DNA of 54,755 nucleotides, the filler included, from Tortispora ganteri (taxonomy: Eukaryota): NCBI GenBank assembly GCA_003707115.1. It is 3 parts of 3 records of this genome, joined end to end, with 100 filler letters (N's around TTAATTAATTAA, not from the genome) between each part and the next. Parts side by side here need not be neighbours in the genome. Positions count along the whole stretch, not along the records: positions 1 to 22,081 come from PPNB01000046.1; 2 more parts are not named here. The stretch is one strand, 5' to 3'. The translations under genes and the position numbers were made by a program. Numbering within the stretch: the stretch's first letter is position 1; every line of letters begins with the position of its first letter. Positions 17,201-48,165 of the stretch are shown here, in pieces. Below the pieces are notes generated by a model. It was given only the letters and a program-made list of their open reading frames with translations. It ran no database searches and was not told the DNA's origin.

Positions 17201-18292
17201 ATGATCGCTCCACCATTTGAACTTCCTACAACTGGCATTAAACCTTTATCTTCTGCCTCTACAGACCCGATAATTATAGCTGCAGAGTCTAACAGACTCA
17301 CCCTCCGCACAGCACTCAAAGCTCATAAACATTCCGTGCCTCCAAACACTATAGCAGTTTCACAGGCCTGCGAGACCTACACACAATCCTTATTCCTCCT
17401 CCGTACTCAACTCCCTCTTTCTACTGCTGCAAATATTACCACAGAATGGGCAATGCCTTTTTCGAAAATACGCAAACTTCATAAACACTCTGCAACCGCT
17501 ACTGCCGCAAACAAAGTCCCTCTGTCTTCGCTCGATGCAGAAATCCACATGGTCATCCTCACATGGGCACTCGCCCGCTGGCTACTCGCTCGTCAGGCTT
17601 TCGACCCGGAAGATCCAAAACCTGCAAATTCTCACCTCCACCAAGCTTATTCGCTTCTTGCATACCTCACACAACCTGATGCTCTCGTTCTGCCTGCCTC
17701 TCCCCATCTCGAGCTCTCCGTACCCTTCATACACTCTCTACTATTCGCTATACACGGCTCAATGCATCTATTAGTTCTATACAAGTCGCTTGTTCTACCT
17801 GACACATACAGTTCTCATCTAGTTTCAACATCTATCTCCCCGCCCCTCCTGGCCACAATAGCAACGTTTGCAGCCCAGTCTTTCGTTTCTGCCTCCTCGA
17901 CTCTACCGCTAGACTTATCAGCATGGTCTGCAGACGCAGCTGCATACTCAAACGCATATGCTCACATGTGTTTGGCACTCGCAGTGTACAAGCAACGGAA
18001 GGTAGGCGACGCCATAGCTCGCCTCAATGCCGCTAATGAAACTCTAAAGGGCATATCATCATCTTCTCACCTAAAACAGTCGGTCTCCGCTTTAGGTACA
18101 CAAATTACACAGCTACTGAACGCATACACTGCCGAAAACAGCAGCATATCGTTCCAAAAAGTACCATTGACCGATTCCATTCTGCCGATGCTGCCTTCAG
18201 GTCGCGTGGCAGTAATCGCCCCTGCATCCTGGCAGCCGCCAGTGGTAAACGTTACCACAGGACCGCACACTGCAACCACAGATTACTATTGA
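17201..18292 (+). CDS. palC: pH-response regulator PalC (Bro1-like domain)
   Basis: N-terminal PFELPTT; C-terminal GDAIARL, ENSSISFQKVP, LPSGR, Pro-rich tail ending in YY, as in PalC/Rim23. Confidence 0.8.
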   Translation: MIAPPFELPTTGIKPLSSASTDPIIIAAESNRLTLRTALKAHKHSVPPNTIAVSQACETYTQSLFLLRTQLPLSTAANITTEWAMPFSKIRKLHKHSATATAANKVPLSSLDAEIHMVILTWALARWLLARQAFDPEDPKPANSHLHQAYSLLAYLTQPDALVLPASPHLELSVPFIHSLLFAIHGSMHLLVLYKSLVLPDTYSSHLVSTSISPPLLATIATFAAQSFVSASSTLPLDLSAWSADAAAYSNAYAHMCLALAVYKQRKVGDAIARLNAANETLKGISSSSHLKQSVSALGTQITQLLNAYTAENSSISFQKVPLTDSILPMLPSGRVAVIAPASWQPPVVNVTTGPHTATTDYY

Positions 18293-18293
18293 T

Positions 18294-18605
18294 CTATTCA
18301 TTGGATTCCAGCAGATCAAGGTCTCGACCCCGTCGAAGCACTTTCGTTCTTTCTCCTTCAACGAACGGCTGTCTGCACATCGGACACAGACCACGAGACG
18401 TTTCCAACATTACCCATTTCACAAGACAATGTTCGTGAAATGAATGACTGCACGTCCCTACTAGCAGCGGACACCCATCTCCCGGGTACTTGCATCCTGG
18501 GCACGTGTTGTCGAAATTAGCTCGACAGATTCCGCACACCTCTTCGTCTGGCACATCCCAGTGCCATGCAGCTACCCCCTGCCAATTCTCAATGTGCACT
18601 TTCAT
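18294..18605 (-). CDS. APC11: Anaphase-promoting complex RING-H2 subunit
   Basis: MKV.I..W..VA.W.W...CGICR..FD.TCP.CKYPGD.CPL..G.C.H.FH.HC...W...LCPMCRQ. Confidence 0.95.
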   Translation of the reverse strand: MKVHIENWQGVAAWHWDVPDEEVCGICRANFDNTCPGCKYPGDGCPLLVGTCSHSFHEHCLVKWVMLETSRGLCPMCRQPFVEGERTKVLRRGRDLDLLESNE

Positions 18606-18883
18606 GGTTCCAGTTCTAAGAGCTCTTTCAAGTATTCAAGTCCCGCGTCGTTGGCGTCGAATACTTCTTCCGCTTCAGCTAATATATCACCTTCTTCGTT
18701 CACAACTACAGGTAGTTTCTTGCCGTTGCCTCGTCTGGTCCACACTTGTCGTGCCTTGCTGTTAGTTGCCGTATCTGCAAGCTCGAACTCAATGCCGCGG
18801 GCTTTCAGAATAAGTTCAAGTCTATTTGTATGAGACGTAACACTTCTAGATGCCGAACTCAATGAGGTGTACACAAAAAGCAT
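18602..18883 (-). CDS. Small SH3BGR-like (glutaredoxin/thioredoxin-fold) protein
   Basis: LFVYTSLS...TNRLELILKARGIEF..AD.A....AR..W...G.KLP resembles fungal SH3BGR-like proteins. ATG 18883; an alternative in-frame ATG lies at 18964. The TGA stop overlaps the APC11 ATG. Confidence 0.7.
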   Translation of the reverse strand: MLFVYTSLSSASRSVTSHTNRLELILKARGIEFELADTATNSKARQVWTRRGNGKKLPVVVNEEGDILAEAEEVFDANDAGLEYLKELLELEP

Positions 18884-19000
18884 TCCGCTGGCCTTGCAGC
18901 TATGTGTTTTGTAATCAAGAGATGTGTTTGGTAAATGTTTGCTTGAACCAACTCTATTTTGCATATTGAACTCTAAATAAATTACCCGGCTTCTAGCCTG

Positions 19001-19051
19001 ATTGGTCCATTCGAGAAATTTCTATAGATCCTCCCTCACCCCGCTATATAA
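19001..19051 (+). promoter_or_regulatory. HSP60 promoter: inverted CCAAT box, perfect heat-shock element and TATA box
   Basis: ATTGG 19001-19005; TTCgaGAAatTTC 19010-19022; TATATAA 19045-19051. Confidence 0.75.
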
Positions 19052-19117
19052 GAGAACCACTCCGGAACTTTTCTCTCACTAGTTTTTACGCTCATCGCTT
19101 AATTTTTTTCTTTATAG

Positions 19118-20878
<1,761 letters not shown>

Positions 20879-22081: not shown

Positions 22082-22181
22082 NNNNNNNNNNNNNNNNNNN
22101 NNNNNNNNNNNNNNNNNNNNNNNNNTTAATTAATTAANNNNNNNNNNNNNNNNNNNNNNNNNNNNNNNNNNNNNNNNNNNN
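22082..22181. other. Artificial contig linker (44 N + TTAATTAATTAA + 44 N)
   Basis: Identical 100-nt spacer with all-frame stops recurs at 41970-42069. Confidence 0.97.
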
Positions 22182-26935: not shown

Positions 26936-27548
26936 TTAGGGTGATAATATAAGTTGGTCGATCAGTATGTGGGTGTGTTTCTAGTGTAGCGCCACTTGGA
27001 TCACAAAGTGGTCGTTAATAGGAGTGAAAATCGAAAAATTATAGAAAATATATTCTCAACAAACTTTTTCTAAATTGTCGAGGGTAATTTGTCAAAAAAA
27101 AATCAAAAAAAATGACTGTAAACTGAAGTTTTTTGAGGAACTTTCTAAATGTAGGGAAAATGTCGCTAGGATCCTGTGGGCGGGCGATGTTGGTGGGGAA
27201 AAAGGGATTCCGTCCCCCCTTATTTTTTATAGGGGACAAGTATTGCTGCGAGGGGTCGATATGTACACAAGAATGAATAAATGTGTAAATATGCAAACAT
27301 TTAAATATATAAATATATAAATATATATATTTATACATTTGTGTGAATATAATACATATCATGCGTTGTATAAGTCTTGCAGATCATTCGCTCAATAAAT
27401 CAATCAATATCGGCTCTCAAAACACTATCGACATTATTCAAACAAATCTGACCAGGTCTTAAACTATTCACCGTCATAATTTGTATTTATAAATTGATAG
27501 TACCGTGTGACTTTTGTCTAGCCATTACCATTATCATTAACTGCGTTC

Positions 27549-41969: not shown

Positions 41970-42069
41970 NNNNNNNNNNNNNNNNNNNNNNNNNNNNNNN
42001 NNNNNNNNNNNNNTTAATTAATTAANNNNNNNNNNNNNNNNNNNNNNNNNNNNNNNNNNNNNNNNNNNN
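41970..42069. other. Artificial contig linker (44 N + TTAATTAATTAA + 44 N)
   Basis: Identical to the spacer at 22082-22181. Confidence 0.97.
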
Positions 42070-47869: not shown

Positions 47870-48165
47870 AGGAATATGAGGTTTGTTAGACGATATTAGT
47901 CGTTCCCGCTGCGCAAGGTACGCTTGAGATTACTGGTATTCAGCTGTATACCTCGGCTTTCTATATGCTACCGAGAGTACAACTAGGACTTACCGAAATT
48001 GGGGGGGGGGCGACTGACAACTAAATCAAACTTTATTTCCCCACTTCGCGCTACGCCAAGTATCGCTACAAACTAGTATGGAACATATATATATATCTAT
48101 GTATGCGATGTTCTGTTCTATGTAGCGCAACTGAATCTCTCTTGTCAGTGTGCAATATTAAACGA

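What the first reader, a model, noticed from the sequence alone, without database searches (positions are those of the whole stretch)
18294..18883. Candidate eukaryotic bicistronic mRNA: SH3BGR-like ORF overlaps the APC11 start as ATGA and contains no internal AUG
Seen: on the minus strand ...GAA CCA TGA AA; the upstream ORF's TGA (18604-18602) overlaps the APC11 ATG (18605-18603), with no intergenic base. By eye there is no ATG in any frame in the ~275 nt between the upstream start (18883) and the APC11 start, where about 4 would be expected at 1/64 per position. The upstream start has G at -3 (GGAATG) and the APC11 start has A at -3 (ACCATG). Established: ATGA overlaps mark translational coupling in prokaryotes and viruses; an AUG-depleted first ORF with a weaker start context is the signature of leaky-scanning bicistronic mRNAs; Apc11 is a core APC/C subunit. 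Inference: one transcript yields both a glutaredoxin-fold protein and Apc11, by leaky scanning or stop-restart. This would be an unusual operon-like unit in a yeast nucleus.
Basis: partly seen in the sequence, partly recalled or inferred. Interest (0 to 1): 0.82.

Follow-up and report, generated by a model that had tools for sequence, protein, structure and literature searches.

The report
Aip5-like gene overlapping yeast APC11 start
In a Tortispora-type yeast, a small actin-regulator gene ends exactly where the cell-cycle gene APC11 begins and contains no internal start codons, so ribosomes probably scan through it to reach APC11, but no RNA data were available to show whether both proteins come from one messenger.

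Summary
On the minus strand a 93-codon ORF (18883-18602) ends in a TGA that overlaps the APC11 ATG (18605-18603) as ATGA. No ATG lies in any frame in the 275 nt between the two starts. By five controls this absence has a chance of 0.5-4.5%.

Both genes are real. ORF1 is a stand-alone homologue of the thioredoxin-fold actin-binding C-terminal domain of yeast Aip5, which is SH3BGRL-like (PDB 6m4c E 3.5e-12). In a related species all 18 of the 18 differences shown in the ORF1-only part fall on third codon positions, the ATGA is kept and no new ATG appears. Tortispora caseinolytica encodes both proteins.

The single-mRNA inference could not be tested, because no RNA run was listed. The synonymous-site signal lies 42-138 nt upstream of the APC11 ATG. 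It therefore fits an APC11 transcription start inside ORF1 as well as leaky scanning of a bicistronic mRNA. G at -3 is not a weak context in this window (10 of 27 ORF starts).

The adjacency is lineage-specific: 0 of 80 fungal metagenome loci carry it. Odds: internal or alternative start 0.45, leaky-scanning bicistron 0.35, stop-restart 0.08.

The parts
18602..18883 (-). ORF1: 93 codons plus TGA. A stand-alone Aip5-C / SH3BGRL-type thioredoxin-fold protein with no Cys and no internal Met. It contains no ATG in any frame after its start codon.
   Evidence: Searches give the sequence and ATG count. One search gives Pfam SH3BGR and GST_N just above their cut-offs. Searches give 411 homologues, the named ones fungal. 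Searches give PDB 6m4c and 6abr (Aip5). Searches give 18 of 18 shown substitutions at codon position 3.
18884..18964 (-). Possible 27-codon N-terminal extension of ORF1, from an in-frame ATG at 18964 (A at -3), or else part of the 5' leader. It contains no other ATG.
   Evidence: The T. caseinolytica model P0001 also starts MQN... at an upstream in-frame ATG, but its extension is 15 aa long and poorly conserved. Homologues usually carry 9-20 residues before the first strand.
18602..18605 (-). ATGA overlap: the APC11 ATG (18605-18603) and the ORF1 TGA (18604-18602).
   Evidence: No difference is listed at 18602-18607 in organism B. T. caseinolytica ORF1 ends with the same ...LELEP, and its Apc11 starts MKVHIENW.
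18294..18605 (-). APC11: 103 codons plus TAG, the RING-H2 catalytic subunit of the anaphase-promoting complex.
   Evidence: zf-ANAPC11 110.1 bits, E 5.3e-32. (96% identical 103-aa T. caseinolytica protein). (15 of 16 shown substitutions at codon position 3).
18645..18745 (-). The stretch of ORF1 that holds all 6 dipeptide sites where a synonymous choice could create an out-of-frame ATG (V47-W, N53-G, N62-E, D76-A, N78-D, D79-A). None of them does.
   Evidence: 0 of 6 are realised here, against 474 of 898 (53%) at such sites in 27 other ORFs. The sites lie 42-138 nt upstream of the APC11 ATG.
18965..19138 (.). Short divergent promoter region shared with HSP60 (ATG at 19139, + strand). It holds a perfect heat-shock element GAAnnTTCnnGAA at 19010-19022 and a + strand TATATAAG at 19045-19052. 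Minus-strand ATGs at 19095 and 19010 open 19- and 5-codon ORFs.
17201..18292 (+). Convergent BRO1-domain gene whose stop lies 1 bp from the APC11 stop. Any APC11 3' UTR must therefore run antisense through it.
   Evidence: (BRO1 57.8 bits).

Best explanation
ORF1 and APC11 are two genuine genes squeezed together with no spacer in a compact Tortispora genome. The ORF1 coding sequence also serves as the 5' leader of APC11 and is kept free of AUG, so that scanning 40S subunits reach the APC11 AUG.

I think it most likely that these subunits load on APC11 mRNAs whose 5' ends lie downstream of the ORF1 AUG. Such ends could come from an internal start site within ORF1, or from the downstream part of the start-site spread of the single 174-255-bp promoter shared with HSP60. 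ORF1 would be translated from longer mRNAs that start upstream of its AUG and run into or through APC11. On this reading the two proteins share DNA, a promoter region and probably a 3' end, but each is the first AUG on its own mRNA isoform.

Shown: the overlap, the AUG depletion, purifying selection on both ORFs, and retention of the arrangement in a related species. Inferred: where the transcripts start and end.
For: - ATGA overlap and zero internal ATG.
- Depletion beyond chance: P(0) of 0.005, 0.021 and 0.0225; 1.4% of sense windows; 1 of 22 homologous segments.
- The synonymous-level signal sits 42-138 nt upstream of the APC11 ATG, where 0 of 6 at-risk sites are realised against 53% elsewhere. 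From my recall of budding-yeast 5' UTR lengths, which no call tested, this is about where an ordinary leader would lie.
- The first half of ORF1 carries no independent signal, because 14 of 63 unlinked homologues are also ATG-free there.
- Yeast does not normally translate downstream cistrons: PMC11952965, section 17 read. That favours a mechanism needing no unusual translation.
- The window is very compact. Divergent spacers reach down to 67 bp and convergent spacers down to 1 bp, so promoters and UTRs already overlap coding DNA here.
- The region shows no unusual RNA structure (z = +1.01; 84 of 100 shuffles fold at least as well).
Against: - No transcript data of any kind were available.
- No consensus TATA box (TATAWAWR) lies on the minus strand inside ORF1. 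From recall, many yeast promoters lack one.
- The AUG-free stretch runs all the way to the ORF1 start, as a leaky-scanning bicistron predicts.
- The pair is an outlier at -4 bp, against 151-809 bp for the other 7 tandem pairs of the window. This shows no room was kept for a separate promoter.
- ORF1 mRNA has no space for its own 3' UTR before APC11, so a transcript carrying ORF1 plus at least part of APC11 must exist in any case.
Confidence: 0.45

Rival explanations
1. True bicistronic mRNA with leaky scanning. One capped transcript from the HSP60-side promoter carries ORF1 and APC11. Most 40S subunits start at the ORF1 AUG. A minority pass it, find no other AUG for 275 nt, and start at APC11, giving much Aip5-like protein and little Apc11.
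For: - The zero spacer and ATGA.
- AUG-free over the whole distance between the two starts.
- Kept in organism B, where 18 synonymous-position changes in the shown part created no ATG. The one change at an at-risk codon was a C-to-A transversion (D76E), not the C-to-T that would have made an ATG.
- No excess RNA structure.
- The same two marks, start-codon depletion before ORF2 and leaky scanning, were validated for green-algal bicistrons (PMC11291117, abstract read).
- Another APC/C subunit, CDC26, is made from a bicistronic mRNA in plants (PMC7943633, passages).
- A low-abundance protein such as Apc11 could tolerate low initiation. This is an inference.
Against: - G at -3 is not a weak context here (10 of 27 starts).
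- If transcripts start upstream of 18964 (A at -3), two in-frame AUGs must be bypassed. The conserved MQN start and the frame kept across a 12-codon length difference in T. caseinolytica hint that 18964 is used.
- The statistical signal is confined to the last 140 nt.
- In S. cerevisiae the second gene of bicistronic transcripts is translated less well (PMC8573964, abstract), and downstream cistrons are normally silent (PMC11952965, section 17).
- From recall, no call: ORF1 termination more than 312 nt from the 3' end should invite nonsense-mediated decay in yeast.
Confidence: 0.35
2. Bicistronic mRNA with termination-reinitiation. Ribosomes translate ORF1, terminate at the UGA of AUGA, and a fraction restart on the overlapping AUG.
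For: - The AUGA overlap itself.
- A 9-bp fungal spacer (IGG6) was reported to support reinitiation after full-length ORFs in S. cerevisiae, P. pastoris, Y. lipolytica and A. nidulans (PMC10352335, passages and section 8).
- An 80S-mediated reinitiation can be induced in yeast (PMC11952965, abstract).
Against: - This model does not predict AUG depletion inside ORF1, which is the one statistically supported feature.
- ORF1 is 93-120 codons long. From recall, that is long for ordinary reinitiation.
- Unselected yeast did not translate cistron 2.
- I noticed no UGGGA-type motif by eye in the last 90 nt of ORF1. That motif is recalled and was not formally searched.
Confidence: 0.08
3. No functional coupling, and the depletion is chance. 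The overlap would be a by-product of genome compaction, and the absence of ATG would be a family and compositional accident.
For: - The ORF was selected from a whole window, so the nominal P values are inflated.
- The family is naturally poor in Met, and its first half is poor in at-risk dipeptides (14 of 63 homologues ATG-free there; alignment).
- The adjacency is absent elsewhere (0 of 80 loci).
Against: - Five different controls give 0.5-4.5%.
- 0 of 6 at-risk sites are realised against 53% in other genes, which is about 0.011 by arithmetic.
- No ATG was gained in organism B despite 18 third-position changes.
Confidence: 0.1

Closest known systems
Green-algal nuclear bicistronic loci translated by leaky scanning (Duenas et al. 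2024, PMC11291117; abstract read)
   Same: Two unrelated conserved proteins on one strand with little or no spacer, and start-codon depletion before ORF2.
   Different: The algal loci have long-read transcript proof and mutational tests. Here there is no RNA evidence, the organism is a budding yeast, and the ORF1 start context is not demonstrably weak.
Plant CDC26-TTM3 bicistronic transcript (Lorenzo-Orts et al. 2019, seen only as described in PMC7943633; passages)
   Same: A small APC/C subunit shares a transcript with an unrelated protein.
   Different: In plants the APC/C subunit is the upstream ORF. Here Apc11 is downstream, and the shared transcript is unproven.
Bicistronic transcripts of S. 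cerevisiae (Wu and Cox 2021, PMC8573964; abstract and passages)
   Same: Budding-yeast tandem genes with short spacers that are read through into one RNA.
   Different: Those pairs keep spacers and monocistronic forms, and the second gene is poorly translated. A 4-base overlap with an AUG-free first ORF is not described in the parts I read: 'overlap' occurs 0 times in the text.
IGG6-mediated reinitiation in fungi (Yue et al. 2023, PMC10352335; passages and section 8)
   Same: An ascomycete precedent for a downstream ORF translated from a bicistronic mRNA across a tiny junction.
   Different: It is an engineered 9-bp spacer derived from a Glarea lozoyensis locus, and its mechanism is reinitiation, which does not need an AUG-free ORF1.
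Aip5 C-terminal domain / SH3BGRL (TPEC) thioredoxin-fold actin binders (PMC6838200 and PMC12827327; passages)
   Same: ORF1 aligns over nearly its whole length to the solved Aip5 C-domains (E 3.5e-12 and 2.2e-11). It lacks the CxxC site and keeps the Leu and Asn equivalent to L1150 and N1162. That numbering is my inference from the alignment and the 1110-1233 construct.
   Different: S. cerevisiae Aip5 is described as mostly unstructured over residues 1-1131, with the ordered domain at 1132-1234. ORF1 is the domain alone at 93-120 aa, like the 99-aa Pneumocystis and the 94-155-aa Lipomyces proteins. S1165 is Glu here.

Membership tests
Aip5-C / SH3BGR-type thioredoxin-fold proteins | Significant sequence similarity over the whole domain | tested here: met
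   phmmer against PDB: 6m4c E 3.5e-12 (query 2-88) and 6abr E 2.2e-11. Family profile against 6abr: E 1.6e-30. Pfam SH3BGR 22.1 bits against a cut-off of 21.
Aip5-C / SH3BGR-type thioredoxin-fold proteins | No catalytic CxxC; a loop between beta1 and alpha1 instead | tested here: met
   The ORF1 translation has no cysteine. The loop position reads TSLSSASRSV, against TSLAGGGFHM in Aip5.
Aip5-C / SH3BGR-type thioredoxin-fold proteins | Binds actin and promotes nucleation or caps pointed ends | not testable with these tools
   Biochemistry is known for S. cerevisiae Aip5-C and human SH3BGRL only.
Apc11 (RING-H2 subunit of APC/C) | zf-ANAPC11 RING-H2 domain in a small protein of full length | tested here: met
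   PF12861 110.1 bits against a cut-off of 25, residues 21-82. A 103-aa orthologue at 96% identity covers 100% of the query.
Leaky-scanning bicistronic mRNA | One capped, polyadenylated transcript that spans both ORFs | not testable with these tools
   No RNA holder was listed. The contigs laid were DNA.
Leaky-scanning bicistronic mRNA | No dominant separate mRNA for ORF2 | not testable with these tools
   Same reason.
Leaky-scanning bicistronic mRNA | Depletion of AUG between the ORF1 start and the ORF2 start | tested here: met
   0 ATG in 275 nt. P(0) is 0.005-0.0225 by shuffles and resampling, 1.4% of windows are ATG-free, and 1 of 22 homologues is ATG-free. The informative part is only the last 140 nt.
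Leaky-scanning bicistronic mRNA | Weak initiation context at ORF1 relative to ORF2 | tested here: inconclusive
   -3 is G at ORF1. G is the commonest -3 base among the 27 ORF starts (G 10, A 9, T 5, C 3). APC11 -3 is A in the window and G in organism B. The sample is too small for a proper context model.
Leaky-scanning bicistronic mRNA | Arrangement conserved in related species | tested here: met
   The organism B contig spans the stretch without gaps and with the ATGA unchanged. T. caseinolytica protein ends are compatible with it. It was not found beyond the genus: 0 of 80 fungal metagenome loci, of which 42 have at least 2 kb downstream.
Termination-reinitiation (stop-restart) | Stop and restart codons overlapping or within a few nt | tested here: met
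   AUGA.
Termination-reinitiation (stop-restart) | Upstream element that tethers the 40S subunit (18S-complementary motif), or a short ORF1 | not tested
   No formal motif search was run. ORF1 is 93-120 codons, so it is not short.

The most novel reading that the evidence does not exclude
A natural, conserved two-protein messenger in a budding-yeast lineage. The essential APC/C catalytic subunit Apc11 would be made only by ribosomes that leak past the start of a minimal Aip5-type actin regulator and scan 275 AUG-free coding nucleotides. This would tie Apc11 dosage to an actin-polarity gene under a heat-shock-element-bearing bidirectional promoter. It would be a fungal counterpart of the plant CDC26-TTM3 and green-algal bicistrons.
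Probability: 0.35. Interest if true: 0.62.

Novelty: new member of a known kind. Interest (0 to 1): 0.42.

Why it matters
If one mRNA makes both proteins, this would be a clean natural case of leaky-scanning bicistronic expression of two conserved, unrelated proteins in Saccharomycotina. That is a group whose scanning machinery is regarded, from recall, as strict, and in which downstream cistrons are normally silent. It would also give a compact native test bed for how yeasts tolerate operon-like units.

If instead APC11 starts inside ORF1, the locus shows how far promoter and leader sequences can be embedded in coding DNA in a compact yeast genome, with a measurable cost on synonymous codon choice.

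Either way, the locus identifies a domain-only Aip5/SH3BGRL-type protein. That bears on which parts of Aip5 are ancestral.

Tried and rejected
- Whole-genome relatives: no genome is held for this window, so nothing was learned.
- RNA evidence: no RNA holder was listed. Only DNA contigs could be laid, so transcript starts, ends and continuity remain unknown.
- Read laying hid 23 of the 62 organism B differences. By the order of the table these are probably those beyond 18773. I therefore could not test codon periodicity in the 18884-18964 extension, nor ATG gain in 18774-18883.
- Earlier findings of this scan: nothing for this place or for either protein. Two unrelated Ostreococcus notes turned up by words.
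- Synteny outside the genus: tblastn with Apc11 found 0 of 80 fungal metagenome loci carrying an ORF1 homologue. No positive control for Apc11 detection was available in that set.
- Fused forms: 0 of 155 ORF1-family proteins match Apc11. The 'longer' search with Apc11 found none among 21 candidates, which the tool itself calls weak evidence.
- A frameshift fusion of ORF1 to APC11 was considered and rejected. I saw no slippery heptamer by eye at the junction, Apc11 starts at its conserved N-terminus, and no fused homologues were found.
- S. cerevisiae-type poly(A) and TATA motif scan of the minus strand, 19138-17900. None of the scanned motifs except two T5 runs and one AAGAAA lies downstream of 19050, and no efficiency element (TAYRTA) or TATA-type motif lies from ORF1 onward, including beyond the APC11 stop. 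The scan is uninformative.
- Rfam: 0 matches in 17500-19600.
- RNA folding: no excess structure.
- Print search: 'bicistronic' plus 'APC11' returned 3 papers, all on plant CDC26. 'Tortispora caseinolytica' plus 'transcriptome' returned 6 papers, none on this locus by title or abstract start.

Full report
**What is there.** On the minus strand the window reads ...CTG GAA CCA TGA AAG....
- A 93-codon ORF starts at ATG 18883 and stops at TGA 18604-18602.
- APC11 starts at ATG 18605-18603 and stops at 18296-18294.
- The two genes share the four bases ATGA.
- The only ATGs in any frame between 18883 and 18603 are the two start codons.
- An in-frame ATG at 18964 would add 27 codons to ORF1. The next upstream minus-strand ATGs, at 19010 and 19095, open 5- and 19-codon ORFs.
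- The whole unit lies between HSP60 (divergent, ATG at 19139) and a BRO1-domain gene (convergent, stop at 18292, 1 bp from the APC11 stop).

**Is the AUG-free stretch more than chance?** Every control says it is unusual.
- Base composition predicts 4.9 ATGs in the 275 inner bases. 5000 mononucleotide shuffles give a mean of 4.95 and P(0)=0.005. Permuting synonymous codons within the ORF gives a mean of 2.41 and P(0)=0.021.
- Redrawing codons from the usage of 27 other ORFs of the window gives a mean of 2.74 and P(0)=0.0225 in 20000 draws.
- Among 275-nt sense-strand windows of those 27 ORFs, 435 of 31116 (1.4%) lack ATG.
- For a family-matched control I took 22 distinct DNA segments encoding the same domain in other fungi, from metagenome loci without APC11 nearby. 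They carry a mean of 3.1 ATG per 240 nt. Only 1 of 22 has none, and that one is 73% G+C against about 46% here (ORF1 composition).

The nominal probability is therefore about 0.5-4.5%, uncorrected for the fact that a reader picked this ORF out of 54.8 kb.

**Both ORFs are real genes.**
- APC11 scores 110 bits on zf-ANAPC11. Tortispora caseinolytica has a 103-aa protein 96% identical over 100% of it.
- ORF1 passes Pfam SH3BGR (22.1 bits, cut-off 21) and GST_N (22.7 bits, cut-off 20.9) narrowly.
- An exhaustive HMMER search finds 411 relatives of ORF1 at E<=1e-3, of which 39 reach 1e-10. Those that carry names are fungal: Lipomyces, Pneumocystis and Dothideomycetes.
- The best solved relatives are the C-terminal domains of the actin nucleation factor Aip5. 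ORF1 alone gives 6m4c E 3.5e-12 and 6abr E 2.2e-11. The family profile gives 1.6e-30. SH3BGRL3 follows far behind, at E 0.01-0.08.
- Aip5-C binds G-actin and boosts formin Bni1 (PMC6838200, passages). SH3BGRL proteins and Aip5 are described as thioredoxin-fold pointed-end cappers (PMC12827327, passages).
- ORF1 has no cysteine. By the alignment it keeps the residues equivalent to L1150 and N1162, while S1165 is Glu. The numbering is my inference from the 1110-1233 construct.

**Conservation of the arrangement.**
- The only close protein in the 5.8-billion set is T. caseinolytica CANCADRAFT_3444: 108 aa, 93-94% identical, with the same C-terminal ...LELEP. It lies on a contig of the same length as the APC11 homologue.
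- Three DNA runs hold the stretch. Two are near-identical to the window. The third, organism B, covers 18200-19200 in one contig with 67 differences and no gaps.
- Of the organism B differences that the tool listed, 18 of 18 in the ORF1-only part (18606-18773) are at ORF1 codon position 3. Sixteen are synonymous, and the other two are E70D and D76E.
- In APC11, 15 of 16 listed differences are at position 3.
- The ATGA is unchanged, and no ATG is created between 18775 and 18606.
- Twenty-three further differences were not shown, so 18774-19200 is unchecked.
- Outside the genus the linkage is absent. Of 80 fungal metagenome loci with an ORF1 homologue, none holds an Apc11-like sequence. Of these, 60 have at least 1 kb and 42 at least 2 kb downstream.
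- 0 of 155 family proteins carry an Apc11 RING. A search for longer Apc11 forms found none (weak evidence).

The overlap is therefore a derived feature of the Tortispora lineage, and both proteins stay under purifying selection.

**Does it show a bicistronic mRNA?** This could not be tested. No RNA run was listed and no genome is held. What the sequence supports is narrower: scanning ribosomes on their way to the APC11 AUG pass through ORF1 coding sequence, and selection keeps that path free of AUG. Where the path begins is open.
- All 6 dipeptide sites at which a synonymous choice could create an out-of-frame ATG lie at codons 47-79, which is 42-138 nt before the APC11 ATG. None is realised, against 474 of 898 (53%) of such sites in other genes. 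That gives about 0.011 by arithmetic.
- The first 46 codons contain no such site and no Met. This is largely a family trait: 14 of 63 unlinked homologues are ATG-free over the same first 137 nt, whereas only 1 of 22 is ATG-free in the second part.
- The signal therefore fits an APC11 leader of about 140 nt or more that starts inside ORF1 as well as it fits a leader starting upstream of ORF1.

- G at -3 is not weak in this window. Among 27 ORF starts, -3 is G in 10, A in 9, T in 5 and C in 3.
- In organism B, APC11 has G at -3 (18608). All three runs read G, not A, at -1 of the ORF1 start (18884).
- The upstream in-frame ATG at 18964 has A at -3. T. caseinolytica also opens with MQN at an upstream in-frame ATG. 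The extension differs in length by 12 codons (15 against 27) yet stays in frame, and homologues usually have 9-20 residues before the first strand. If 18964 is used, leaky scanning must pass two AUGs.
- The region is not unusually structured (z = +1.01), holds no Rfam family, and has no consensus TATA on the minus strand.
- A scan for S. cerevisiae-type poly(A) elements found none, even beyond APC11, so it says nothing.
- Because ORF1 has no room for a 3' UTR, its mRNA must run into APC11. An RNA with ORF1 followed by part or all of APC11 must therefore exist. The open question is whether Apc11 is translated from it.

**Published context.**
- S. cerevisiae makes bicistronic transcripts, with the second gene translated less well (PMC8573964, abstract and passages).
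- Unselected yeast did not translate cistrons 2 and 3 of a model polycistron (PMC11952965, section 17).
- A 9-bp fungal spacer is reported to allow reinitiation in four ascomycetes (PMC10352335, passages and section 8).
- In green algae, weak ORF1 context plus start-codon depletion before ORF2 mark leaky-scanning bicistrons (PMC11291117, abstract).
- In plants, the APC/C subunit CDC26 is the upstream ORF of the TTM3 mRNA (PMC7943633, passages).
- Polycistronic transcripts in mushroom-forming fungi were seen only as a search listing (PMC4503453).
- A search for 'bicistronic' with 'APC11' returned 3 papers, all on the plant case.

**Verdict.**
- The bicistronic inference stays open.
- My odds for how Apc11 is translated:
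  - 0.45: from mRNAs starting downstream of the ORF1 AUG (internal or alternative start site).
  - 0.35: by leaky scanning of a true bicistronic mRNA.
  - 0.08: by stop-restart, which does not predict the AUG depletion.
  - About 0.1: the depletion is chance with no coupling.
- In kind this is a candidate new member of known eukaryotic bicistronic or overlapping-gene arrangements. It would be notable mainly for occurring in a budding yeast and involving an essential APC/C subunit.

Noticed in passing
18602-18964 (-): ORF1 is a domain-only Aip5/SH3BGRL-type protein of 93-120 aa. S. cerevisiae Aip5 carries the same domain after about 1100 disordered residues. Relatives place the domain at the N-terminus of 250-600-aa proteins or at the C-terminus of 550-1100-aa proteins. 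Pneumocystis (99 aa) and Lipomyces (94-155 aa) also have short forms.
   Followed up: partly
18292-18294, and the convergent pairs across the window: The APC11 stop and the convergent BRO1-domain gene stop are 1 bp apart. Five of the window's other convergent pairs are 69-93 bp apart. 3' UTRs must therefore routinely run antisense into neighbouring coding DNA.
   Followed up: no
19010-19022 and 19045-19052: A perfect heat-shock element GAAnnTTCnnGAA (2 in the window, 0.86 expected) and a + strand TATATAAG sit in the 174-255-bp divergent region between ORF1 and HSP60. ORF1 and APC11 may share a heat-responsive bidirectional promoter.
   Followed up: no
18884: The window reads T on the + strand, but all three DNA runs that cover it read C. 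This is either a strain difference or a base error in the window. It changes -1 of the ORF1 start from A to G.
   Followed up: no
22082-22125, 22138-22181, 41970-42013, 42026-42069: Two pairs of 44-base N runs, each pair split by 12 bases. These are masked or withheld stretches, both inside long gene-free gaps.
   Followed up: no
whole window: TATAWAWR occurs 36 times against 19 expected, and none of 100 shuffles reaches 36. The matches are concentrated in intergenic stretches such as 27224-27491 and 48084-48095.
   Followed up: no
not in the window (recalled): From memory only, tested by no call: in S. cerevisiae another thioredoxin-fold gene, GRX6 (YDL010W), lies just upstream of APC11 (YDL008W) on the same strand. 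ORF1 is an Aip5-C relative, not a Grx6 relative, so this is probably coincidence.
   Followed up: no
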